Of a stretch of DNA of 64,000 nucleotides, positions 4,101-56,396 are shown in pieces. Position 1 is the first letter of the stretch; every line of letters begins with the position of its first letter. The notes beneath the pieces were generated by a model that saw only the letters and a list, made by a program, of their open reading frames with translations, was not told where the DNA came from and did no database searches. The stretch is from an uncultured delta proteobacterium. GTDB lineage: Bacteria > Desulfobacterota > BSN033 > UBA1163. Where the stretch lies: the NCBI GenBank assembly GCA_963711845.1, contig CAVQFR010000014.1, positions 73,644 through 137,643 of the forward strand, in the 5' to 3' direction. The position numbers and the translations under genes are program-made.

Positions 4101-5334
4101 TTACTTCTTATGCCTAAGAATGAAGAGCCCGTGATTCTTGTCCGTGATGTAAATATATCCCCGATTATCGACGATCACGTCTTCTGTCTGGGTGGCCAAT
4201 TCTTTGGGAAGCAGTCCCCTCTTCTTCTTGGGTGAAGCCGGGATGAAATAGGCAATAGGCCTGGGCACGCCCGGGGCAGCTGATGTCGTAAAGCCATAGG
4301 CCTCCACTCTCGTAACAGATATGGATGATGTTATCGACATCCGCAAGACAAGGTTGATGGTGGGGCATGTGGATGTTATGCGGCCCGAACTTTCCTCCGA
4401 GTTCCTGGAAATCTCGAACTCCTAATTCCTCCGGAGGAACCGGGATAGGGAAATTTGCAATTGGTTTGGGTTTCTCCTCATTTGTCATATCCACAACCAA
4501 TGCAAGGTTAAGCGGGTCCCGCTCTTCTTCGAGGATGGCCTCCGTTGTGGCGATCGCCAGTTTCCTCGACGGGATGGGCAAATAGGTGTGAGCTCCCACA
4601 ATGCTTCCAAAATCTCCGATGTCGATGCGGCCGAGTTGGCGAGGATGGGAAAGATCGGAGATGTCCAGGGTGATAAAACCGGCCCGACCATAGGGGAGAT
4701 AAGCTCTCTCTCCTATCACATACGGCGGACCATGGAGTTGATAGAAGCGATCCGCCTTTTCGCCTCCCTCTTCCCATTGTCCTTTAAACCACCACCGTGA
4801 AACCTCTTTGGGGTGGGTCGGATCGCTTATATCCACAGCAACAAAGATGTTTCCTTTATAACCCTTCATGTTGGCCGCAAGATACGCATATTTTCCACCT
4901 GAATAAAAGTTACGGTGGGTTCCAAAGCCTCCGGTTTCAAAAGAGCCCAGTCGCTTGGGATCCGTCGGATTCTTAACATCCCAGATCAGGATGCCTTCAC
5001 CGAAAGGCAGAGAGGGATCGTGTCCCCAGATATCGTTCCGACCCAGGATCCCATCCCCGATTCTCTCCAGAGCGGTGACCATCTTCCCCTGGGCCACCTG
5101 AACTTGTAATGTCCATGTATTGGCCGGACCGGGGATGAATTTGAGAAGCTCGGGTCGAGAGGGACGGGTGATATCCATGATGGTCCAGCCGCGGTGCCAG
5201 AAATGGCCGATATACAAGTACCAGCGGCCCTCCACTTCCTGAATCGCCATCTTGAATCCAGGCCTTTCGTCGAGGTCATGGTATGCGACCGTCTCCATGT
5301 TCTTGCTGATAAAACCCGGACTCTCACTCATCAC
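4101..5334 (-). CDS. LVIVD-repeat beta-propeller protein (apparent frameshift near 3' end)
   Basis: 389-aa ORF with about six repeats of hydrophobic-D-hydrophobic-SDP-x-x-P pattern (ILIWDVKNPTDP, FVAVDISDPTHP, FITLDISDLSHP, LALVVDMTNEEKP, LWLYDIS); final repeat continues in another frame in ORF 4101..4346 (...DVIVDNRGYIYITDKNHGLFIL). Confidence 0.6.
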
Positions 5335-15030: not shown

Positions 15031-15079
15031 CCCCTCACCCTTCCCCTCTCCCCAGCGGGAGAGGGTGGGAGTGAGGGGG
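15031..15079. repeat. GC-rich palindromic repeat, copy 1 (CCCCTCACCCTTCCCCTCTCCCC / GGGAGAGGGTGGGAGTGAGGGGG)
   Basis: Read directly; immediately 3' of the peroxidase gene; related copies at 28669, 36175, 46536, 56160. Confidence 0.6.
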
Positions 15080-15083
15080 TCAT

Positions 15084-17726: not shown

Positions 17727-17845
17727 GTGGAGCCCCACGGGCAAAGCCCGTGGCACCTGACTAACGCCCGAGAGGGGCGACATCCCGGCCAAAAGTTGGC
17801 GCATTCATCCACGGCCAAAGGCCGTGGCTTTCTGCTGCCGGGGTA
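17727..17845. repeat. dispersed ~120-bp hairpin-rich repeat, copy A
   Basis: gtggagccccacgggcaaagcccgtgg...ggcgcattcatccacggccaaaggccgtgg...ccggggta; about 85-90% identical by eye to 51967..52086. Confidence 0.65.
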
Positions 17846-18174: not shown

Positions 18175-18249
18175 TGGAGGCGGCAATCGGATTTGAACCG
18201 ATGAATAACGGTTTTGCAGACCGTCGCCTTACCACTTGGCTATGCCGCC
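18175..18249 (-). tRNA. tRNA-Cys (anticodon GCA)
   Basis: Reverse complement GGCGGCATAGCCAAGTGGTAAGGCGACGGTCTGCAAAACCGT...ATCGGTTCAAATCCGATTGCCGCCTCCA; acceptor stem pairs perfectly, discriminator U, CCA encoded. Confidence 0.9.
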
Positions 18250-18251
18250 CT

Positions 18252-18326
<75 letters not shown>

Positions 18327-28653: not shown

Positions 28654-28668
28654 CGTCAACGAAAGACC

Positions 28669-28718
28669 ACCCCTCGCCCCTCCCTCTCCCCTGAGGGGAG
28701 AGGGGAAGGGTGAGGGGG
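28669..28718. repeat. GC-rich palindromic repeat, copy 2
   Basis: cccctcgcccctccctctcccctgaggggagaggggaagggtgaggggg. Confidence 0.6.
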
Positions 28719-28730
28719 AATTGTGAAATT

Positions 28731-40430: not shown

Positions 40431-42896
40431 TCACTTTGCAGAATCTTTCCTCCGGGGAATTCCCAGCTCCTTCTCGACCTGTAAGATTCTATCGGTCGTC
40501 TTGATGACGGTATCAGGGTTGAGGGAGATGCTGTCGATGCCACACCGGACCAGAAACTCGGCGAATTCCGGATAATCGCTGGGAGCCTGGCCGCAGATGC
40601 CAATCTTCCTTCCATTCTTCTTGGCGCTTTCAATCAATGATTGAACCATTTTTTTCACCGCCGGATCCCGCTCATCGAAGATATGAGAAACTTTCTCTGA
40701 ATCACGATCCAATCCCAATACCAACTGGGTCAGATCATTCGATCCGATGGAGAATCCGTCAAAAACCTCGGCAAATTCATCAGCCATGATCACATTGCTG
40801 GGGATCTCACACATCACATAGATCTCAAGGCCATTTTGCCCCTGGATCAGACCGTGCTTTCTCATCTCCGCAATGACCAACCTCCCCTCCTCCACCGTCC
40901 TGCAGAAGGGAATCATCAATTTTACATTGGTCAAACCCATCTCATTCCGAACCTTTTTCATCGCCTTGCATTCAAGAGAAAACCCTTCCTGATAAGACTC
41001 ATCATAATACCGGGAGGCTCCCCGGAAACCAATCATGGGGTTGTCTTCAACAGGTTCAAATTCGCTTCCACCGATGAGATTGGCGTACTCATTGCTCTTA
41101 AAATCGCTCATTCTCACGATGACATCTTTAGGATAAAAGGCAGCAGCGATCTTGGCCACCCCTTGAGCCAGCCGATCGACGAAGAAGACCTCCTTATCTT
41201 CATACCCGATGGTCAACTGTTCAATCTCCTTTTTAATATGACTATCGCTGATTGAATCAAATCGGACAAGCGCCATGGGGTGGATTCGTATAAAATTATT
41301 GATAATGAATTCCAGTCTGGCCAGACCCACCCCGTCATTGGGAATAAAGGAAAGGTGGAAAGCATTGTCCGGGTTTCCCACATTCATCATGATTTTTGTT
41401 TGAGGCTTCTCCAGATGTGCCATATCGAAGTGCCTCACTTCATAATCGAGGATCCCTTCGAAAACCAATCCCGTCTCCCCTTGCGCACAACAAACGGTGG
41501 CACTTCGATAGTCTTTCAAAAGCTCGCTTCCATCCCTTGTTCCCACCACACAGGGAACGCCCAGCTCCCGGCTGATGATGGCCGCATGACATGTCCTTCC
41601 CCCGCGGTCGGTCACAATGCCCGAGGCAATTTTCATGATGGGTTCCCAGTCCGGGTCCGTCATCTGGGTGACCAATATCTCGCCCTTCTTAAACTTCTCT
41701 ATCTCTCTTGGACTGGTGATGACATTGATGGGGCCAGCGCCAATCTTTTCACCGACGCTCTTCCCCTGGACCAAAACATTCCCCTTCTCCTTTAAGTAGT
41801 AGGTCTCCAGAACATTCATCGCTCGCTGGGATTTTACCGTCTCGGGCCGTGCTTGAAGAATAAAGAGTTCCTGGGTAATACCATCCTTGGCCCACTCAAT
41901 ATCCATGGGCATGTAGACCCCTGCTTTTTTCGAATAGTGCTCTTCGATCCTCACCCCCCATTGGGCAAGGAGGATAATCTCTTCGTCGCTCAGGATGAAA
42001 TCCGCCCTTTCTTGTGCGGAGACAGGAACATTCTTGGTTGACCCCTCTCCCTCCAGGGTGTAAATCATTTTGATCTCTTTACTTCCGAGGGTTTTCTGAA
42101 TGATGGGTTTATAATTTCCTTTAATGCAGGGTTTAAATACATAGAATTCATCGGGATTGATAACTCCCTGAACAATATTCTCCCCTAATCCATAAGCACC
42201 TGTGATGTACACCACGTCAGGAAAGCCGGATTCTGTATCGATCGTGAACATCACCCCAGAACAGGCCTTATCGGAGCGCACCATCTTCTGAACTCCGATA
42301 GAAAGAGCGACCGAAAAGTGGTCAAACCCCCTATGGGTTCTGTAGGAGATGGCGCGGTTGGTAAAAAGGGAGGCAAAACATCGTTTGCAGGCTTGAACGA
42401 GGGCGTATTCCCCGCGGATGTTGAGATAAGTCTCCTGCTGACCGGCAAAACTCGCACCAGGAAGGTCTTCGGCTGTTGCGCTGCTACGGACCGCCACATC
42501 CGTATCCTCCCCATACTCCTTGCACAACTTCCGATAGGCTTTAACAACCTCCTCAACGATCTCCCTGGGAAACTCCAAACTGTGGATAAGCCTCCGGACC
42601 CGGCTTCCCCTCTCTGAAAGGTTTTCCACATTTTCGACATCGAGATCAGAAAAGATCTCTCGAATATTTTCTTTGATCTTTGGTTTACTCTTACCATCAT
42701 GCCAGTCTTGGACAATCCCTTCGTCCAAAAGGGCATGGTAGGCATTCACGGTTACAGCAAATCCATTAGGGACACTCACCCCTTGTTTCGTCAGTTCCTT
42801 TCGCATCTCTCCCAAGGAGGCATTCTTTCCTCCAACTGTGGGAAGATCGTCGAGTCCAATTTCGTCAAACCAAAGAATGTAAGGTTTTTCCCCCAT
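40431..42896 (-). CDS. ppsA: phosphoenolpyruvate synthase (pyruvate, water dikinase)
   Basis: 821-aa ORF with PEP-utilising enzyme mobile domain (phosphohistidine region GGRTCHAAIISRELGVPCVVG) and PEP/pyruvate-binding TIM-barrel. Confidence 0.95.
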   Translation of the reverse strand: MGEKPYILWFDEIGLDDLPTVGGKNASLGEMRKELTKQGVSVPNGFAVTVNAYHALLDEGIVQDWHDGKSKPKIKENIREIFSDLDVENVENLSERGSRVRRLIHSLEFPREIVEEVVKAYRKLCKEYGEDTDVAVRSSATAEDLPGASFAGQQETYLNIRGEYALVQACKRCFASLFTNRAISYRTHRGFDHFSVALSIGVQKMVRSDKACSGVMFTIDTESGFPDVVYITGAYGLGENIVQGVINPDEFYVFKPCIKGNYKPIIQKTLGSKEIKMIYTLEGEGSTKNVPVSAQERADFILSDEEIILLAQWGVRIEEHYSKKAGVYMPMDIEWAKDGITQELFILQARPETVKSQRAMNVLETYYLKEKGNVLVQGKSVGEKIGAGPINVITSPREIEKFKKGEILVTQMTDPDWEPIMKIASGIVTDRGGRTCHAAIISRELGVPCVVGTRDGSELLKDYRSATVCCAQGETGLVFEGILDYEVRHFDMAHLEKPQTKIMMNVGNPDNAFHLSFIPNDGVGLARLEFIINNFIRIHPMALVRFDSISDSHIKKEIEQLTIGYEDKEVFFVDRLAQGVAKIAAAFYPKDVIVRMSDFKSNEYANLIGGSEFEPVEDNPMIGFRGASRYYDESYQEGFSLECKAMKKVRNEMGLTNVKLMIPFCRTVEEGRLVIAEMRKHGLIQGQNGLEIYVMCEIPSNVIMADEFAEVFDGFSIGSNDLTQLVLGLDRDSEKVSHIFDERDPAVKKMVQSLIESAKKNGRKIGICGQAPSDYPEFAEFLVRCGIDSISLNPDTVIKTTDRILQVEKELGIPRRKDSAK

Positions 42897-43136: not shown

Positions 43137-43202
43137 GAGAATTGATTTTTGAATGAATTATTATTAATATAAGATGTTATCCTAGAGAAGGAAGTGAAAT
43201 TC

Positions 43203-46031
43203 ATGAAAAGTTCGAAATATGTCTACCTTTTTGAAGAAGCCGATGGGACCGATAAGAAACTCCTTGGCGGGAAAGGAGCGGGTTTGGCCGAAATGACCCG
43301 TATGGGTCTCCCTGTTCCGCCTGGATTTATCGTCACCACCGAGGCTTGTCTTCATTTTTATGAGAACAAAAAGAGACTTCCTAAAGGCCTCCTGGAAGAG
43401 GTGGAAGTCAATCTGAAAATGGTGGAGGAAAAAACAGGCAAAAAACTTGGAAGCGCTCAAAATCCCCTCTTCTTCTCTGTCCGGTCGGGCGCGGCGATGT
43501 CCATGCCTGGAATGATGGACACCATTCTCAATTTGGGCTTAAACGAGAAGACTCTTGAGGGTTTGATCCAGATCACGTCGGATGGAAGATTTGCCTATGA
43601 TGCTTACCGAAGATTTATTCAACTTTTCGGAAAGATCGCCTTGGGGTTGGAAGAAAAGGAATTTGACCAAATCCTTAACCAGACAAAAGAAAGAGTGGGG
43701 GCCAAAGAGGATATTGATCTCAATGCTGATTATCTCAAGGACATTTGTAAACAATATCTGGGATTAATCAAAAAAAGGACGGGAACCCCTTTTCCTCAAG
43801 ACCCGATGGTTCAACTCAGACTCGCCATTGAAGCGGTTTTCAAATCCTGGATGGGCAAGAGGGCGGTGGATTATCGAAAGGAATTCAACATCACCCGTGA
43901 CATGGCGAACGGAACCGCCGTCAATGTCTGCACCATGGTTTTTGGGAACATGGGTTTTGACTCGGCAACGGGGGTTGCGTTTACACGAGACCCGGGCACA
44001 GGAGAGAACATTCTCTATGGGGAATATCTTGTGAATGCCCAGGGTGAAGATGTCGTGGCCGGGATCCGGACACCCAAACCCATCCAAGAGATGAAGAAGG
44101 AAATGCCGAAAACCTACCGAGAGATGGAGCGGATCAGAAAAATCTTGGAAGAGCATTTTCATGAAGTTCAGGACTTCGAGTTCACCGTGGAGAAGGGGAC
44201 CCTCTATATCCTTCAAACTCGAAATGGGAAGATGAACGCTCAGGCGATCGTTCGAACTTCTAAAGACATGGTCTCTGAAAAACTAATTAATAAGGAAAAA
44301 GCTGTCCTGAGATTGAAACCTCAAGAGCTGGAACAACTCCTCCATAAGCGGATCGATCCAAATTTCAAGGGGAAACCAGTCTGCGTCGGCCTCGCAGCTT
44401 CCCCGGGAGCAGCCTCCGGAAAAGCAGTGTTCGATGCGGATGAAGCAGAAAGGTTGGGAAAACTTGGGCAAAAACTCATATTGGTGCGAGAGGAAACGAA
44501 ACCCGAGGATATTCATGGCTTCTTTGCTGCCCAGGGGATCTTGACGAGCCGGGGAGGAAAGACCTCCCATGCCGCAGTGGTCGCAAGGGGTATGGGCAAA
44601 CCCTGTGTATCTGGATGCGAAGAGTTGCACATCGATCCACAGAAGAGAGAGACCACCGTAGGGAATATTCACATCAAAGAAGGAGATTTCATCACCATCG
44701 ATGGCTCCAGAGGCGAGGTCTATCTGGGAGAGGTCCCTACCGTAGACCCTGAAATCAGCAAAGACCTCCTTACGCTCCTGGGTTGGGGGGATGGGATAAG
44801 AACGTTGGGCGTTCGGGCCAATGCCGATACCCCTGAGGCCGCGATCAAAGCAAGGCAGCTGGGTGCAGAAGGGATCGGTCTCTGCCGAACAGAGAGAATG
44901 TTCAACGCCGCGGATCGGCTCCCCATTGTTCGGGAGATGATCTTGGCGGGGTCGAAAGAGAAGAGGGCAGAAGCGATTGCAAAGCTTCTTCCCATGCAGC
45001 GCAGCGACTTTAAGGAGATCTTCAGGGCCATGGAAGGACTGCCGGTGACCATCCGTCTCCTCGACCCACCGCTTCATGAATTTCTCCCATCCGCCGAAGA
45101 ACTGGCCGAAGAATTGAGAAAGCTGAAGGAGATTGATACCGCCTTTTCCACCATGGAAAACATCTCTGATGCGATGAAGTTTCTGGATCCCTCTTTCCGC
45201 GAATCACTGGGACTCCTCGACCACGTGGTGACGGATATCGTCGAGATTAAAGAGAAGAGGCTCGATAAGAAGCTCATCCGAAAAGAGCAGGAAACTCTCA
45301 GGAAGGTGAAAGAGATGATGGAGGTCAACCCCATGCTGGGTCATCGAGGGGTCAGGTTGGGGATTACCTATCCAGAGATCTATAAGATGCAGATTCAGGC
45401 GATTCTGGAGGCCGCCGCCGAGTTGATCAAAGAAGGTCTTGATATTCAACCTGAAATTATGGTCCCCCAAGTCTGCACCGCCCAAGAATTGAAATGGGTT
45501 TCTCAACTCGTCTTAAAGGTCCAAAAGGAAGTGGAGAAACAATTTAGAATCCGGATCCCCTTCAAATTCGGGACGATGATCGAAGTGGTGAGAGCCTGTA
45601 TGAGGGCCGGGAGATTGGCGGAGGTGGCAGACTTCTTCTCCTTCGGGACCAACGACCTCACTCAGGCCACCTTCTCTTTCTCCAGAGAAGATGCGGAAAA
45701 CAAATTCCTGCCCCTTTACAATCAGCGGAAGATTCTCCAGGACAATCCCTTTGAAGTATTGGATGTGAAAGGCGTGGGAAGGTTAATGATGATCGCGATC
45801 GAGTGGGGAAGGAGGACAAAACCGGATCTGAAGATTGGGATCTGTGGTGAACATGGTGGGCATCCGGAATCGGTCGAATTCAGTCACAGCATCGGACTTT
45901 CCTATGTCAGTTGCTCTGCTCCACGCCTCCCGATTGCGCGTCTGGCAGCCGCCCATGCCAAATTGAAAGAGAAGGAGAAAAAACCTTCGGAAAAATACGA
46001 CCCCGATGTTTTTGGCATACCCTCTGTTTAA
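43203..46031 (+). CDS. ppdK: pyruvate, phosphate dikinase
   Basis: About 940-aa ORF with PPDK N-terminus (KYVYLFEEADG…GGKGAGLAEM), phosphohistidine domain (GGKTSHAAVVARGMGKPCVSG) and C-terminal PEP-binding barrel; ATG 43203 preferred (SD AGAAGGAAG). Confidence 0.95.
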   Translation: MKSSKYVYLFEEADGTDKKLLGGKGAGLAEMTRMGLPVPPGFIVTTEACLHFYENKKRLPKGLLEEVEVNLKMVEEKTGKKLGSAQNPLFFSVRSGAAMSMPGMMDTILNLGLNEKTLEGLIQITSDGRFAYDAYRRFIQLFGKIALGLEEKEFDQILNQTKERVGAKEDIDLNADYLKDICKQYLGLIKKRTGTPFPQDPMVQLRLAIEAVFKSWMGKRAVDYRKEFNITRDMANGTAVNVCTMVFGNMGFDSATGVAFTRDPGTGENILYGEYLVNAQGEDVVAGIRTPKPIQEMKKEMPKTYREMERIRKILEEHFHEVQDFEFTVEKGTLYILQTRNGKMNAQAIVRTSKDMVSEKLINKEKAVLRLKPQELEQLLHKRIDPNFKGKPVCVGLAASPGAASGKAVFDADEAERLGKLGQKLILVREETKPEDIHGFFAAQGILTSRGGKTSHAAVVARGMGKPCVSGCEELHIDPQKRETTVGNIHIKEGDFITIDGSRGEVYLGEVPTVDPEISKDLLTLLGWGDGIRTLGVRANADTPEAAIKARQLGAEGIGLCRTERMFNAADRLPIVREMILAGSKEKRAEAIAKLLPMQRSDFKEIFRAMEGLPVTIRLLDPPLHEFLPSAEELAEELRKLKEIDTAFSTMENISDAMKFLDPSFRESLGLLDHVVTDIVEIKEKRLDKKLIRKEQETLRKVKEMMEVNPMLGHRGVRLGITYPEIYKMQIQAILEAAAELIKEGLDIQPEIMVPQVCTAQELKWVSQLVLKVQKEVEKQFRIRIPFKFGTMIEVVRACMRAGRLAEVADFFSFGTNDLTQATFSFSREDAENKFLPLYNQRKILQDNPFEVLDVKGVGRLMMIAIEWGRRTKPDLKIGICGEHGGHPESVEFSHSIGLSYVSCSAPRLPIARLAAAHAKLKEKEKKPSEKYDPDVFGIPSV

Positions 46032-46113
46032 ACGTCTAGACCAAGAGCTTTCTCTGCCTCCGAAGACTTACTTGGATACAACCAAAGCCAAACTCTAAAA
46101 AGTTTGTTCTATT

Positions 46114-46389
46114 CTATTGCCGACGCCGGAGCCTCTCAATGGCAAGGCGCAAGCTATCCTGCATGCGTAAGATCGCTTCGGCCAAGTTCCCTATTTCATC
46201 CCTGGATTTAATCTTTATTTCGGCGCCCATGTCCCCGACGCTGATCCTTTCAGCGACCTCAGTCAACTTTTTGATCGGTGTACCAATCTCCCGGCCTAAG
46301 AACCAGGCAATAAGGATCACCCCTAGGGTGGTTATTCCCAGAAGAACGTAGGTAAAAACCTCCGCATCCCTTAGGATCTTATTGGCCCA
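46114..46389 (-). pseudogene. orphan transmembrane-helix + HAMP-domain fragment of a sensor protein
   Basis: Open frame back to stop at 46390 encodes …FTYVLLGITTLGVILIAWFLGREIGTPIKKLTEVAERISVGDMGAEIKIKSRDEIGNLAEAILRMQDSLR…; no sensor or kinase domains follow. Confidence 0.45.
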
Positions 46390-46468
46390 TCACTTCAATT
46401 CCGGCCCGCCTTTTCCTCTTCCAAAGATCCCGCGAAAAATATATTTTCTCCTCTCAGCCATGAACAGA

Positions 46469-46533
46469 AAATCCTCCGGTACAATCCCTTTGAAGTATTG
46501 GATGTGAAGTGCGTGGGAAGACTAATGAGGATC
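46469..46533. repeat. ~65-bp duplicate of an internal ppdK segment (source 45730..45795)
   Basis: acaatccctttgaagtattggatgtgaag.gcgtgggaag..taatga matches ppdK coding sequence about 700 bp upstream at roughly 85-90% identity. Confidence 0.7.
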
Positions 46534-46535
46534 TG

Positions 46536-46574
46536 TCCCCCTCTCCCCTCAGGGAGAGGGGAAGGGTGAGGGGG
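46536..46574. repeat. GC-rich palindromic repeat, copy 4 (partial)
   Basis: ccccctctcccctcagggagaggggaagggtgaggggg. Confidence 0.6.
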
Positions 46575-46593
46575 AAATTTCAGATATCTTTGG

Positions 46594-46936
46594 TCAGATT
46601 TCAACGGGAAGGATTTTTCTTTCCTTTACATTGACGTAGCCTTGGTGGGTAATTCTCAGGTGAGGGAAGGCAGGTGTTCCAAGAGTATCGACGGTGAAGA
46701 CTGGCTTATCCCATTTTACACCATTCTCTCTCAGAGACTCATCGAGCTTTCTAACCTCTTCTCTCACGATCTCCATGGGTTTTCTCGTCTTGGGCAGGAT
46801 CATGATCAGGACCGACATAGGCAATCATTCCATCCTTGATCCAGATGGACTGCTTCTTAATAAACTCTCCTGTGAAAACGTTGAAGAGGACACCGTTGGT
46901 GATGAACGTATCAGGGGGAATATTCCCTAAAGCCAC
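46594..46936 (-). pseudogene. decayed N-terminal fragment of an amidohydrolase-family gene
   Basis: ORF 46751..46936 encodes FITNGVLFNVFTGEFIKKQSIWIKDGMIAYVGP (amidohydrolase N-terminal beta-sandwich pattern), then frame breaks; no catalytic domain. Confidence 0.3.
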
Positions 46937-46937
46937 T

Positions 46938-47741
46938 TTACTGAGGATATTTCTCTTCTCTGTCTCGCTCAGGGTGGTTCACCTTTTTCCATCCTGTTCT
47001 CGCGCGGCATAATTCCCTGCCCTCCCCTTCCCTGGAAACACGATGAAGAAAAACGGGGGGAGATTCCTGAAGAGTCTCTGTCTGGATCGATATGGCATCC
47101 TCATAGGAAGATTCGGCAAGGAAATTGATCTCGAAGGTATGAATTTGATGGGTCCGGTTGATCTCAAATGGAGCGCTGTCCAGAATCCATTCAATGTATT
47201 TGATATTGTTCACATGATGGTGGATATCGATATCGCTGTAACGGACCTCATAAGACTTCGTCGATTTAGGCTGGACAGGGGCAGGAAGCTTTTCAGGCTC
47301 CTCGGCAGGACGAAGTGGATCGAACAAATGACGAAGATGTCTGAATAAAGGCTCAATCTTTTGAGGCTTCCGGTTCTTCAGATCGAGGACCAACCAGGCA
47401 CTCCTGGCGGTCCCCAGAATCTTCCCCGCTAGATCAGAGATCGAGAATTGACGAAGGGCAAAGAGACGGCCTGTCCCTGTCAGCCAGGTTTTTACTCTGA
47501 TCCGGTCTCCCCAACAGGGATATTTCTCCATCTGAACAGACAAACGGGATAACACCCAAAAATATTGGTGCCCCATCAGGTCGGAATAACCCACCCGCAG
47601 ATGATCGGCATGATGCCAGGCGGTCTCCTGCATGAAACTCCAAAGGACCGGCAGGAACACCTCGTTCTTCGCATCCACCTCATAAAAGGAGATCGAATAT
47701 TCATCTTCCCAGCTCGTTTTCATCGGATCACTTTCAGGCAT
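46938..47741 (-). CDS. acyl-ACP thioesterase
   Basis: 267-aa ORF with double hot-dog thioesterase pattern (…YFWVLSRLSVQMEKYPCWGDRIRVKTWL…ARSAWLVLDLKNRKP…). Confidence 0.7.
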   Translation of the reverse strand: MPESDPMKTSWEDEYSISFYEVDAKNEVFLPVLWSFMQETAWHHADHLRVGYSDLMGHQYFWVLSRLSVQMEKYPCWGDRIRVKTWLTGTGRLFALRQFSISDLAGKILGTARSAWLVLDLKNRKPQKIEPLFRHLRHLFDPLRPAEEPEKLPAPVQPKSTKSYEVRYSDIDIHHHVNNIKYIEWILDSAPFEINRTHQIHTFEINFLAESSYEDAISIQTETLQESPPVFLHRVSREGEGRELCRARTGWKKVNHPERDREEKYPQ

Positions 47742-47756
47742 CCTCTGATCCTGCGG

Positions 47757-49301
47757 CTATCTTTCGCGGCGGTTTGAATTTGTAAACTGTCTTACCACGT
47801 CGTCCTTTATAATCTTGCCCATTCTGTTTCTCGGGAGCTCTTTCAAAAAGACGATCTCTTTCGGGCATTTCCAGTCTAAGAGGCGTTCTTTACAGAATTG
47901 TTTTATTTTATCAATGGCGGGTTTCACACCAGGTTTTAAAACGACCCCAGCCACCACTTTCTCACCCCACTTTTCATCAGGGACCCCTACGACACAGGAC
48001 TCGGATATCTCCGGGTGGCGGTCGAGGACGGATTCCACCTCCTTGGGTGAAATATTTTCTCCTCCGGAGATAATAATGTGCTTCAAACGGTCTGTGATAT
48101 AGTAGTATCCCTCATCGTCCTTCTTACCCAAATCGCCGGTACGAAACCATCCGTTCACAAAGGCAGCTTCCGTCTCCCGGGGCTTCCCCCAATAACCCGG
48201 TGTGACGTTGGGCCCCCTTAACCAGATCTCTCCCACCTCGCCTGTGCCTAAGTCTTTGAAGCTTTCCGGATCTACGATTCTGACTTCCACACAGGGAAGC
48301 GGAAGGCCGATGGAACCGGGCTTCTTCTTACCCCGAAGAGGATTAGAGAAATTCATTCCTGTCTCGGACATTCCTTCTCTCTCTAAAGGCTCCTTCCCGA
48401 AAACTTCCTTAATCCTCTCAAATTCTCTCGGAGGCAGTGGAGCTGACCCCGAAGCCAACAGTCGAATGTGGTTGAAATTCCCGATTTCCTTTTCTAATCT
48501 GTCCATCATCTTCACATACATGGTCGGAACACCCATGAACATCGTGCAAGCCAGTTCTCCTTCCTGATGGGACAGAATATCATTGACAGGCTCGCTGGAA
48601 AACTCATCCAGCATCACGATCTTTGAGCCCGCGATGAGCGACGTATGAAGGGCAAAGCATAAGCCGTGGATATGAAAGAGCGGGAGGGCGTGGCAGAGAG
48701 TGTCTCTCTCGGAGATCTCCCAAATTTGGATCACATTCCGGGCATCCTGGATCAGGTTCTGCTGGGTGAGGATCGTTCCCTTGGGTTGACCGGTCGTTCC
48801 CGAGGTATAAATGAGGATGGCAGGATCGTGGAGGTTTCCACGGGGAGAGGATGTCCGAGAGGGAGAGGATGGAAATAGTTTCTCTTCCGAAAAAGGGGAT
48901 TCTGTATCAACAGACAAGATCCGTCTTTTGGAATCAAGGGACCGGATAAAGTCTTCCTCTTTCTTCCCCACAACGATGATCTTTGCATCCGTATCCTTTA
49001 AGAAATAAACGACCTCATCTCGTTTAAATCCCGGGTTAAGGATCACCGAGATTCCTCCGGATTTTTGGATCCCCAGGTGTATCACCACTGCCTCGACGCT
49101 CTTCGGCATATCGAGAATGACCCGATCCCCCTTCTCCAGCCCCATTTCCTTCAGGCCGCTCGCGACCCGGTCAGAAACCTTCTTCAGGGAAAAGTAGGTC
49201 ACCCGGCTCTCGATTCTTCCCTTTTTCAGAAAAAGGATCGCTTCCTTTTGGCCTAACCGGAGTGCGGTTTGATCAAAAAGGGAGCTTAGCGTCTCAATCA
49301 C
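47757..49301 (-). CDS. acyl-CoA synthetase (AMP-dependent synthetase/ligase)
   Basis: AMP-binding motif ILIYTSGTTGQPKG, C-terminal …LPRNRMGKIIK. Confidence 0.85.
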   Translation of the reverse strand: MIETLSSLFDQTALRLGQKEAILFLKKGRIESRVTYFSLKKVSDRVASGLKEMGLEKGDRVILDMPKSVEAVVIHLGIQKSGGISVILNPGFKRDEVVYFLKDTDAKIIVVGKKEEDFIRSLDSKRRILSVDTESPFSEEKLFPSSPSRTSSPRGNLHDPAILIYTSGTTGQPKGTILTQQNLIQDARNVIQIWEISERDTLCHALPLFHIHGLCFALHTSLIAGSKIVMLDEFSSEPVNDILSHQEGELACTMFMGVPTMYVKMMDRLEKEIGNFNHIRLLASGSAPLPPREFERIKEVFGKEPLEREGMSETGMNFSNPLRGKKKPGSIGLPLPCVEVRIVDPESFKDLGTGEVGEIWLRGPNVTPGYWGKPRETEAAFVNGWFRTGDLGKKDDEGYYYITDRLKHIIISGGENISPKEVESVLDRHPEISESCVVGVPDEKWGEKVVAGVVLKPGVKPAIDKIKQFCKERLLDWKCPKEIVFLKELPRNRMGKIIKDDVVRQFTNSNRRER

Positions 49302-49402
49302 TTTCTATCTCTCCATCTTGCCCATGTAGATTTTCTTAACAAAATTCAAAGCTTGGTGTCAAATATTTAGGACATCGTCAATAATGTATTACTAACTTAG
49401 TC

Positions 49403-49431
49403 TTGACTTACTTTATTTTATATGATATACA
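49403..49431 (+). promoter_or_regulatory. candidate sigma70-type promoter (TTGACT-N17-TATACA) for the AbrB/PIN pair
   Basis: Spacing-correct -35/-10 hexamers about 30 bp upstream of the antitoxin start; GGAG SD before ATG 49460. Confidence 0.4.
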
Positions 49432-51966: not shown

Positions 51967-52086
51967 GTGGAGCCCCACGGGCATAGCCCGTGGTACCCTA
52001 CTTCACGCCTCAGCGGGGCGACATCCCGGCCAAACGCTGGCGCATTCATCCACGGGCAAAGCCCGTAGCCTTCTGCTGTCGGGGTA
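51967..52086. repeat. dispersed ~120-bp hairpin-rich repeat, copy B
   Basis: gtggagccccacgggcatagcccgtgg…ggcgcattcatccacgggcaaagcccgtag…tcggggta; partial extra copy of the 3' part immediately upstream (about 51905..51960). Confidence 0.65.
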
Positions 52087-56159: not shown

Positions 56160-56250
56160 TCCTCCCCCTTGACGGGGGAGGACTAAGGTGGGGGTGGACA
56201 GGATGTGCTCCCCCTCACCCCCACCCTCTCCCGCAAGGGGAGAGGGAGAT
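56160..56250. repeat. GC-rich palindromic repeat, copy 5 (with adjacent CCTCCCCCTTGACGGGGGAGG hairpin)
   Basis: cccctcacccccaccctctcccgcaaggggagaggg. Confidence 0.55.
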
Positions 56251-56396
56251 GACGGACTATTTTCCATGTAATCCAAATTTCGAATTCCAAAATCCCAAAC
56301 TATTTCTATCTGTTTGGGTCATTTGTATTTTCAAAATTGGTGCTTGTTTCGGATTGATCCCTGCGGGATGCTTCGCCCGCGCTTCGTATTTCGATA

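What the first reader, a model, noticed from the sequence alone, without database searches (positions are those of the whole stretch)
46032..46940. Gene-fragment patch downstream of ppdK: orphan HAMP fragment, duplicated ppdK segment, GC-rich repeat and amidohydrolase remnant
Within about 900 bp there is a TM-helix plus HAMP ORF with no sensor or kinase domain, a ~65-bp copy (46469..46533) of an internal ppdK segment (45730..45795) at about 85-90% identity, a GC-rich palindromic repeat directly abutting that copy, and a frame-broken N-terminal piece of an amidohydrolase-like gene. This looks like the scar of recombination events, possibly mediated by the GC-rich repeat family.
Basis: seen in the sequence. 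Interest (0 to 1): 0.6.

Follow-up and report, generated by a model that had tools for sequence, protein, structure and literature searches.

The report
Gene-remnant patch downstream of ppdK
The 900 bases after the ppdK gene hold the remains of three genes, left by two deletions absent from related contigs plus one much older rearrangement scar; this is ordinary bacterial gene decay, not a new kind of element.

Summary
The window comes from an uncultured Syntrophaceae/Syntrophales-type deltaproteobacterium. Related contigs show the undamaged locus: ppdK -> <- dCache-HAMP sensor (391 aa) <- gene X (167 aa) [ppdK fragment] <- adenine deaminase <- acyl-ACP thioesterase.

- **Sensor operon deletion.** A 1,668-bp deletion (junction 46374|46375) removed gene X, its promoter region and the first ~305 codons of the sensor. 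Only TM2 plus HAMP remains. A contig 99% identical up to the junction still has the intact gene, so this loss is recent.
- **Adenine deaminase deletion.** A 1,346-bp deletion between two GTTT repeats (46779-46782) removed the middle of the gene. Both its N- and C-terminal ends remain, and the start codon is now CTG.
- **ppdK copy.** It is a decayed, non-coding fragment of about 160-195 nt found in every relative with this gene order. It is therefore an old footprint of the event that placed the X-HAMP cassette between ppdK and ade.
- **GC-rich palindrome.** It belongs to a REP-like hairpin family with four copies in the window. It lies at neither deletion junction and is absent or replaced at this site in relatives, so it did not mediate the deletions.

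Interest is low.

The parts
43194..46031 (+). Intact ppdK (pyruvate phosphate dikinase, 945 aa). Its last 7 codons (46008-46028, VFGIPSV) differ from the ancestral ...TSFSIFF ending and mark the left border of the inserted X-HAMP cassette.
   Evidence: Pfam PPDK_N, PEP-utilizers and PEP-utilizers_C. Nucleotide identity to type A and B relatives is uniform at 0.75-0.9 up to 46007, then drops to 0.33-0.46 in the last 24 nt. C-terminal sequences are listed.
46114..46374 (-). 3' remnant (last ~87 codons: TM2 plus HAMP plus stop) of a 391-aa TM1-dCache-TM2-HAMP sensor gene. It has no promoter and lacks its own start codon.
   Evidence: Pfam HAMP E=1e-13. 97-99% identical to L085 and 88-93% to L001 and L095, all of which carry the intact gene. 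The intact protein matches dCache_1 plus HAMP.
46374..46375 (.). Junction of deletion 1. It removed 1,668 bp relative to L095 (L095 4545-6212): sensor codons 1-~305, all of gene X, and about 250 bp of the X upstream region.
   Evidence: Junction alignment of the window against L085 (left side) and L095/L086 (right side). At most 1-2 nt of microhomology.
46378..46533 (+). Decayed, non-coding fragment of ppdK, matching about 45637-45795 (codons ~815-867). G-rich residual similarity may continue into 46552-46566.
   Evidence: It is present in all type C relatives with lineage-specific indels. Identity to the genome's own ppdK is 55% in the 5' part and 83% in the 3' part.
46538..46577 (.). GC-rich REP-like hairpin, a member of a family with copies at 15031-15080, 28668-28720 and 56209-56248. 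It sits 17 nt beyond the ade stop codon.
   Evidence: Predicted hairpin energy is -31 kcal/mol, against -41 to -45 for the full palindromes. No Rfam family matches.
46594..46782 (-). C-terminal remnant of adenine deaminase (ade): the last ~62 codons plus the stop codon.
   Evidence: Pfam Adenine_deam_C E=1.3e-9, profile 113-168/169. 85-91% identical to the 3' end of the intact ade genes of L007, L158 and L095.
46779..46782 (.). Junction of deletion 2. GTTT is a 4-nt microhomology. 1,346 bp of ade (about 449 codons) were removed, leaving a frameshift.
   Evidence: Junction alignment against L158 and L095. The two BLAST segments overlap at 46779-46782.
46783..46972 (-). N-terminal remnant of ade (about 63 codons). 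It overlaps the 3' end of the thioesterase gene. The original ATG start is CTG here (46970-46972).
   Evidence: Weak Urease_alpha/amidohydrolase N-terminal match. tblastn with L095 ade. Start-codon comparison read from the sequences.
46938..47741 (-). Intact acyl-ACP thioesterase gene, the right-hand anchor of the locus.
   Evidence: Pfam Acyl-ACP_TE N- and C-terminal domains. Syntenic in L007, L095 and L158.

Best explanation
The patch is a decaying locus built in layers.

**Layer 1 (old, inferred).** In an ancestor of this clade a two-gene cassette was placed between the convergent genes ppdK and ade. The cassette is gene X plus a dCache-HAMP sensor with its roughly 400-bp upstream region. 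Its left border lies inside the last 7 codons of ppdK. A duplicated piece of ppdK (codons ~815-879) was left on the far side, next to the ade stop codon, and has been decaying as non-coding DNA ever since.

**Layer 2 (shown by comparison).** Small GC-rich palindromic elements have repeatedly entered the short spacer between that fragment and ade. This genome has a member of its own REP-like family there.

**Layer 3 (shown).** Two simple illegitimate-recombination deletions, not seen in any related contig, then occurred. One removed 1,668 bp with almost no microhomology and destroyed the X-sensor operon. The other removed 1,346 bp between GTTT repeats and destroyed ade.

Nothing in the patch is expected to be functional. 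The one possible exception is the hairpin, which might act as a 3' RNA end or stabiliser, but this was not tested. The genome lacks working copies of the sensor module and the adenine deaminase at this locus.
For: - Gene orders in relatives: type A is ppdK-> <-ade (L002, L003, L007, L008, L009). Type C is ppdK-> <-HAMP <-X [fragment] <-ade <-TE (L095, L158).
- L095 aligns collinearly with the window except for two gaps, and the junctions were read base by base.
- L085 is 99% identical to the window up to 46374 and has the intact 391-aa gene.
- The ppdK fragment is present in every type C locus, with different indels and substitutions in each.
- ppdK identity to types A and B collapses only after 46007.
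- The X-HAMP pair, with its conserved upstream AAAATTGTCAC region, occurs in unrelated contexts.
- ade was deleted independently, with different junctions, in L084, L087, L089/L090/L144 and L092/L118.
- The GC repeat is absent or different at this site in relatives.
Against: - No read data are available, so an assembly collapse or a population variant cannot be excluded for either deletion.
- No independent contig carrying the same two junctions was found. Exact-protein look-ups for five window proteins found nothing.
- The mechanism of the old insertion is not resolved. Type B relatives (ppdK-> <-ade <-HAMP <-X) suggest a local rearrangement rather than an insertion from outside.
- The fragment lacks ppdK codons ~880-945, so at least one further deletion must be assumed.
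- The fragment is mosaic, which simple neutral decay does not explain. Its 5' part is 94% identical to the L095 fragment, but its 3' part is only 63% identical to L095 and 83% identical to ppdK.
Confidence: 0.8

Rival explanations
1. The deletions were produced by recombination between copies of the GC-rich repeat family.
For: The repeat is a real dispersed family. It directly abuts the ppdK fragment, and this spacer is a hotspot for palindromic elements in relatives.
Against: Both deletion junctions lie 160-240 nt from the repeat and show only 1-4 nt of microhomology. In L095 and L158 the undeleted segments are not flanked by copies of the repeat. The ppdK fragment also exists in relatives that lack the repeat (L084, L095).
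Confidence: 0.05
2. The patch is an assembly artefact. A metagenome assembler collapsed or chimerically joined strains, and the true genome carries intact X-HAMP and ade genes.
For: All close relatives are MAGs or metagenome contigs, which suggests the window is too. Strains that are 99% identical and carry the intact sensor gene exist (L085). No second contig with the same junctions was found.
Against: - The flanks are collinear with relatives on both sides of each junction.
- Assemblers rarely create two clean internal deletions 400 bp apart without repeats at the joins.
- The ade start codon is independently mutated.
- Several other contigs carry their own, different ade deletions, so decay of this locus is biologically real in the clade.
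Confidence: 0.1
3. The ppdK fragment arose from a tandem duplication of [ppdK 3' part - ade - HAMP - X] in a type B-like ancestor, followed by loss of one copy of each gene (tandem duplication, random loss). On this view no cassette was inserted.
For: Type B relatives have ppdK-> <-ade <-HAMP <-X (L106, L107, L112). In type C the fragment keeps the ancestral convergent orientation next to the ade stop. The ppdK 3' end shows no sign of foreign origin.
Against: It needs at least three further deletions. In type B the sequence upstream of X is not TE-ligase (L106 has 1.5 kb upstream with no match). The ade-TE adjacency is shared by types A and C. X-HAMP also occurs in unrelated contexts, as a portable cassette would.
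Confidence: 0.2
4. The ppdK fragment is retained because it is functional, for example as part of the regulatory region of the X-HAMP operon or as an antisense RNA against ppdK, and it is refreshed by gene conversion from ppdK.
For: It persists in all type C lineages even where ade next to it was deleted. In the window and in L081 the 3' ~70 nt are much closer to ppdK (83-89%) than in sister lineages (39-75%). This disagrees with the relationships shown by the 5' part.
Against: Copies differ by many substitutions and indels, and in L090 and L144 the 3' part is almost unrecognisable. In the window the operon it would regulate has been deleted. No promoter, terminator or Rfam signal was found.
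Confidence: 0.07

Closest known systems
Bacterial pseudogene remnants made by microhomology-mediated (illegitimate) deletion, i.e. the deletional bias of bacterial genomes (established knowledge)
   Same: Internal or terminal gene pieces remain with frameshifts. The junctions carry 1-4 nt of direct repeat. The same gene (ade) is lost independently in sister lineages.
   Different: Nothing essential differs. The only added feature is that an older duplicated gene fragment sits in the same spacer.
REP/BIME-type repetitive extragenic palindromes
   Same: The elements are short (40-55 nt), GC-rich imperfect palindromes. They are dispersed, lie just 3' of genes, form stable hairpins, and differ between strains at a given site.
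   Different: The sequence is unrelated to enterobacterial REP. No RAYT-type transposase was looked for or seen. The copy here has a short left arm. Membership in any described family was not shown, and Rfam has no match.
Af1503-type receptors (transmembrane sensor ending in a HAMP domain with no output domain)
   Same: The intact gene in relatives is TM1 - periplasmic sensor - TM2 - HAMP - stop. Its HAMP domain matches Af1503 and HtrII HAMP structures at E=1e-4 to 1e-3.
   Different: The sensor domain is dCache_1, like PctA/PctC (E=3e-8). The gene is always paired with an upstream 167-aa gene X that has no known family. In the window only the TM2-HAMP tail survives.
Adenine deaminase (ade, TIGR01178; Pfam Amidohydro_1 plus Adenine_deam_C)
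   Same: The intact orthologue in L095 matches TIGR01178 over its full length at E=3e-90. The window remnants match its two ends.
   Different: The score (303 bits) is below the NCBIfam equivalog cut-off (472.5), so the exact substrate is not assured. In the window about 449 central codons, which include the stretch matching the catalytic Amidohydro_1 domain, are missing.

Membership tests
HAMP-domain signalling protein | A HAMP domain immediately after a transmembrane helix | tested here: met
   Pfam PF00672 E=1e-13, residues 30-81 of the 91-residue frame, preceded by FTYVLLGITTLGVILIAWFL.
HAMP-domain signalling protein | A complete gene with start codon, N-terminal TM1 and sensor domain | tested here: not met
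   The frame opens after a stop codon with no ATG before the TM helix. Orthologues in L001, L085 and L095 are 391 aa with dCache_1.
Adenine deaminase (ade) | Adenine_deam_C C-terminal domain | tested here: inconclusive
   Only profile positions 113-168 of 169 are present (E=1.3e-9). The rest of the domain is deleted.
Adenine deaminase (ade) | Amidohydrolase catalytic barrel with metal-binding residues | tested here: not met
   1,346 bp are missing relative to L095 and L158, which removes the stretch that matches Pfam Amidohydro_1 in L095.
Pyruvate phosphate dikinase (the downstream copy) | A full PEP-utilizers_C domain in an open reading frame | tested here: not met
   Only about 52 codons are recognisable. 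There is no Pfam hit (protein 5). Orthologous fragments carry frameshifting indels.
REP-like extragenic palindromes | A dispersed multi-copy imperfect palindrome located outside genes | tested here: met
   Four sites in 64 kb against 0.14 motif matches expected by chance. All lie just 3' of minus-strand ORFs. Hairpin z-scores range from -1.7 to -4.9.
REP-like extragenic palindromes | An associated RAYT/IS200-like transposase (REPtron) | not tested
   No search for such a gene was made in the window or its relatives.

The most novel reading that the evidence does not exclude
The ppdK fragment may not be inert. In at least two lineages (the window and L081) its 3' ~70 nt appear to have been overwritten from the functional ppdK gene, whereas sister lineages let it decay. 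It has also survived every independent ade deletion. If so, it could be a maintained element, either a regulatory or antisense piece linked to the X-dCache-HAMP operon, or a preferred landing site for the GC-rich palindromes.
Probability: 0.06. Interest if true: 0.5.

Novelty: already known. Interest (0 to 1): 0.22.

Why it matters
- **For annotation.** The region contains pseudogene remnants. It should not be called as a short HAMP protein, an "amidohydrolase" and hypothetical ORFs.
- **For biology.** This strain has lost a dCache-HAMP sensor module and adenine deaminase. Adenine deaminase has been deleted independently at least five times in this clade, which points to relaxed or negative selection on adenine salvage by this route.
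- **Beyond that.** It is a clear but ordinary example of deletional gene decay layered on an older rearrangement scar.

Tried and rejected
- **Rfam.** Neither the whole window at gathering threshold nor 46000-47000 at E<=1 gave a credible RNA family for the repeat or the fragment.
- **Exact-protein look-ups.** ppdK, thioesterase, ligase, ppsA and the 76-aa ade ORF were tried in order to find the source genome or an independent contig with the same junctions. Nothing was on record.
- **Foreign ppdK 3' end.** I tested whether the 3' end of ppdK came from another lineage, as homology-facilitated illegitimate recombination from a distant donor would predict. Identity to type A and B genes is uniform up to 46007, so this is not supported.
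- **Closest donor of the fragment.** Its own ppdK and that of L001 are nearest over the last ~70 nt. Over 128 nt the comparison does not discriminate between lineages.
- **Second palindrome.** The palindrome seen in L081 and L158 was searched for in the window and not found.
- **Gene X.** Pfam, NCBIfam and PDB sequence searches gave no family.
- **Repeat as truncated by the breakpoint.** Rejected, because the copy at 56209-56248 has the same short-left-arm form.

Full report
**Observation**

The region was read directly and translated in all relevant frames.

The minus-strand frame 46114..46386 encodes a TM helix followed by a HAMP domain (Pfam PF00672, E=1e-13). It opens right after a stop codon and has no start codon ahead of the helix.

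Window 46467-46533 matches the internal ppdK segment 45728-45794 at 86.6% (blastn E=1e-16). The repeat finder extends the ungapped match to 128 nt at 73%. Translation shows the similarity stays in the ppdK frame back to about 46378: [50 protein letters not shown] against [50 protein letters not shown].

The GC-rich palindrome at 46538-46577 belongs to a family with copies at 15031-15080, 28668-28720 and 56209-56248. The motif gives 5 matches against 0.14 expected.

The "amidohydrolase remnant" is more than an N-terminal piece. One ORF, 46751..46936, is the amidohydrolase-type N-terminus. The overlapping ORF in another frame, 46594..46824, matches the last 56 positions of Pfam Adenine_deam_C (E=1.3e-9). 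It is therefore an adenine deaminase gene with its middle missing.

**Source organism and intact versions of the genes**

A scan of species-representative genomes with the ppdK C-terminal half returned uncultured Syntrophaceae / "Deltaproteobacteria" MAGs as close relatives. L001 is 98% identical at the amino-acid level and 94% at the nucleotide level, and L002-L009 are 85-92% identical at the amino-acid level.

In L002, L003, L007, L008 and L009 a full-length ade gene of about 585-607 codons converges on ppdK (type A). In L003, L007, L008 and L009 the gap between them is only about 10-60 bp. L002 has an extra ~900 bp there. In L007 ade is followed by the thioesterase.

In L001 the gene after ppdK is an intact 391-aa protein whose last 87 codons correspond to the window's HAMP ORF. 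It ends at the same RLRRRQ*. Pfam finds dCache_1 plus HAMP and no output domain. The lack of a kinase domain is therefore native, and what the window lacks is TM1 plus the dCache sensor.

**Reconstruction of the locus**

A metagenome scan seeded with the L001 sensor protein gave 80 loci. blastn and tblastn maps define a type C order, shown here in window orientation: ppdK -> <- dCache-HAMP <- X (167 aa, no known family) [spacer] <- ade <- thioesterase <- AMP-ligase. L095 and L158 have it complete.

L095 is collinear with the window in four blocks:

| Window | L095 | Identity |
|---|---|---|
| 45726-46030 | 6937-6633 | 98% |
| 46112-46381 | 6475-6206 | 93% |
| 46371-46782 | 4548-4156 | 82% |
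| 46779-49415 | 2813-177 | 90% |

The window therefore differs by two deletions.

- **Deletion 1.** The junction is CCCTTAGG|ATCTTATTGG at 46374|46375, with at most 1-2 nt of microhomology. It removes 1,668 bp: sensor codons 1-~305, all of X, and its upstream region.
- **Deletion 2.** It lies between two GTTT repeats at 46779-46782 and removes 1,346 bp of ade, which shifts the frame.

The ade start codon, ATG in L095, L158 and L007, is CTG in the window at 46970-46972.

L085 is 99.0% identical to the window across 806 nt of ppdK and 98.8% across the intergenic spacer. It is 97.4% identical across the HAMP remnant and carries the intact gene. Deletion 1 is therefore recent, at strain level.

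**The ppdK fragment is old**

The same fragment lies between the X upstream region and the ade stop in every type C locus examined: L081, L084, L086, L089, L090, L092, L095, L144 and L158. Each copy has its own substitutions and indels, so it is non-coding and decaying.

All type C ppdK genes end ...KYDPD-VFGIPSV (IFGIPTV in L084), whereas types A and B end ...KYDPD-TSFSIFF or similar. Binned nucleotide identity between the window's ppdK and type A/B genes is uniform up to 46007 and random in the last 24 nt. The left border of the inserted block is therefore 46008.

On the far side the cassette ends about 45 nt beyond a conserved AAAATTGTCAC motif. That motif also accompanies X-HAMP in unrelated genomic contexts (L097, L104, L108).

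My inference is that the X-HAMP cassette was placed between ppdK and ade in an event that duplicated part of ppdK, from codon ~815 onward. The right-hand copy later lost its 3' end.

Type B relatives (L106, L107, L112) have ppdK-> <-ade <-HAMP <-X. A local route by tandem duplication and loss therefore remains possible, and I could not decide between the two.

**An unexplained mosaic**

The window's fragment is 94% identical to the L095 fragment in its 5' 88 nt but only 63% identical in its 3' 71 nt. In that 3' part it is instead 83% identical to ppdK. L081 shows the same bias, at 89%.

This suggests patch replacement or gene conversion from ppdK. The number of differences from ppdK (12 of 71) is high for a recent conversion, however, so I leave this open.

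**The GC-rich repeat**

All four copies lie just 3' of minus-strand ORFs and fold into stable hairpins of -31 to -45 kcal/mol. No Rfam family matches.

The short left arm of this copy is a natural variant, because the copy at 56209-56248 has it too.

At the same site L084 and L095 have no such element. L081 and L158 carry a different palindrome between GAGA(A/G)GG and a GGT[A/G]AGGGGG motif. L089 and L092 also carry other GC-rich palindromes at this spot. The spot is therefore a hotspot for small palindromic insertions.

The repeat is 160-240 nt from either deletion junction, and repeat copies do not flank the deleted segments in relatives. Nothing indicates that it caused the deletions.

**Recurrent loss of ade**

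Several relatives carry their own ade deletions:

- L084 joins window-equivalent 46728 to 46809.
- L087 joins about 46678 to 46805.
- L089, L090 and L144 keep only about the first 17-22 codons.
- L092 and L118 keep only about the last 40 nt.

Counting the window, that makes at least five independent deletion alleles.

**Verdict**

This is ordinary gene decay by illegitimate deletion, layered on an older rearrangement footprint and a REP-like insertion.

Mis-assembly cannot be excluded without reads. It is unlikely, given the collinear flanks and the independent decay seen in relatives.

Novelty is "already known" and interest is low (0.22).

Noticed in passing
L095:4792-6470 (also L001 8225-9786, and L081-L160 generally); remnant at window 46114-46374: A conserved two-gene module: a 167-aa protein X with no Pfam, NCBIfam or PDB match, followed by a TM-dCache_1-TM-HAMP protein that ends right after HAMP with no output domain. 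The pair, with a conserved upstream AAAATTGTCAC region, occurs in many metagenome contigs in different genomic contexts (X 24-100% and HAMP 41-100% identical to the L095 proteins). X may be the signalling partner of an output-less sensor.
   Followed up: partly
L084, L087, L089, L090, L092, L118, L144 (spacer between gene X and the thioesterase gene): Adenine deaminase has been deleted independently at least five times in this clade, each time with different junctions, while the neighbouring thioesterase and X-HAMP genes stay intact.
   Followed up: partly
window 17727-17845 and 51967-52086: A second dispersed repeat of about 120 nt, 88-89% identical between the two copies. It contains short GC hairpins (CCACGGGCAAAGCCCGTGG). 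The first copy lies about 330 nt from two tRNA genes at 18178-18326.
   Followed up: no
window 56160-56260: Another GC-rich palindrome (TCCTCCCCCTTGACGGGGGAGGA) lies directly next to the copy of the GGGAGAGGG...GGTGAGGGG repeat. This suggests clustered or nested palindromic elements, as seen at the ppdK-ade spacer in relatives.
   Followed up: no
window 46552-46566 vs 45804-45822; L095 rc ~4360-4380: The long arm of the GC repeat (GGGAGAGGGGAAGG...) resembles the ppdK sequence GAGTGGGGAAGGAGGAC, which would follow the fragment. L095 has GAGAGGGGGAGGG there without a hairpin. The repeat may have landed on, or partly grown out of, this G-rich ppdK-derived stretch.
   Followed up: partly
window 40431-42896 (-) and 43194-46031 (+): PEP synthase (ppsA) and pyruvate phosphate dikinase (ppdK) are divergently adjacent. 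The pairing is conserved in the relatives whose contigs reach upstream of ppdK.
   Followed up: no
L002:11311-12214: L002, otherwise type A, has a ~900-bp insertion between ppdK and ade. It contains a GGGAGAGGGCGGGGGTGAGGGG motif preceded by GACACAGTCTC. The same left context appears at L001 1818-1839, which may indicate a related but distinct element.
   Followed up: no
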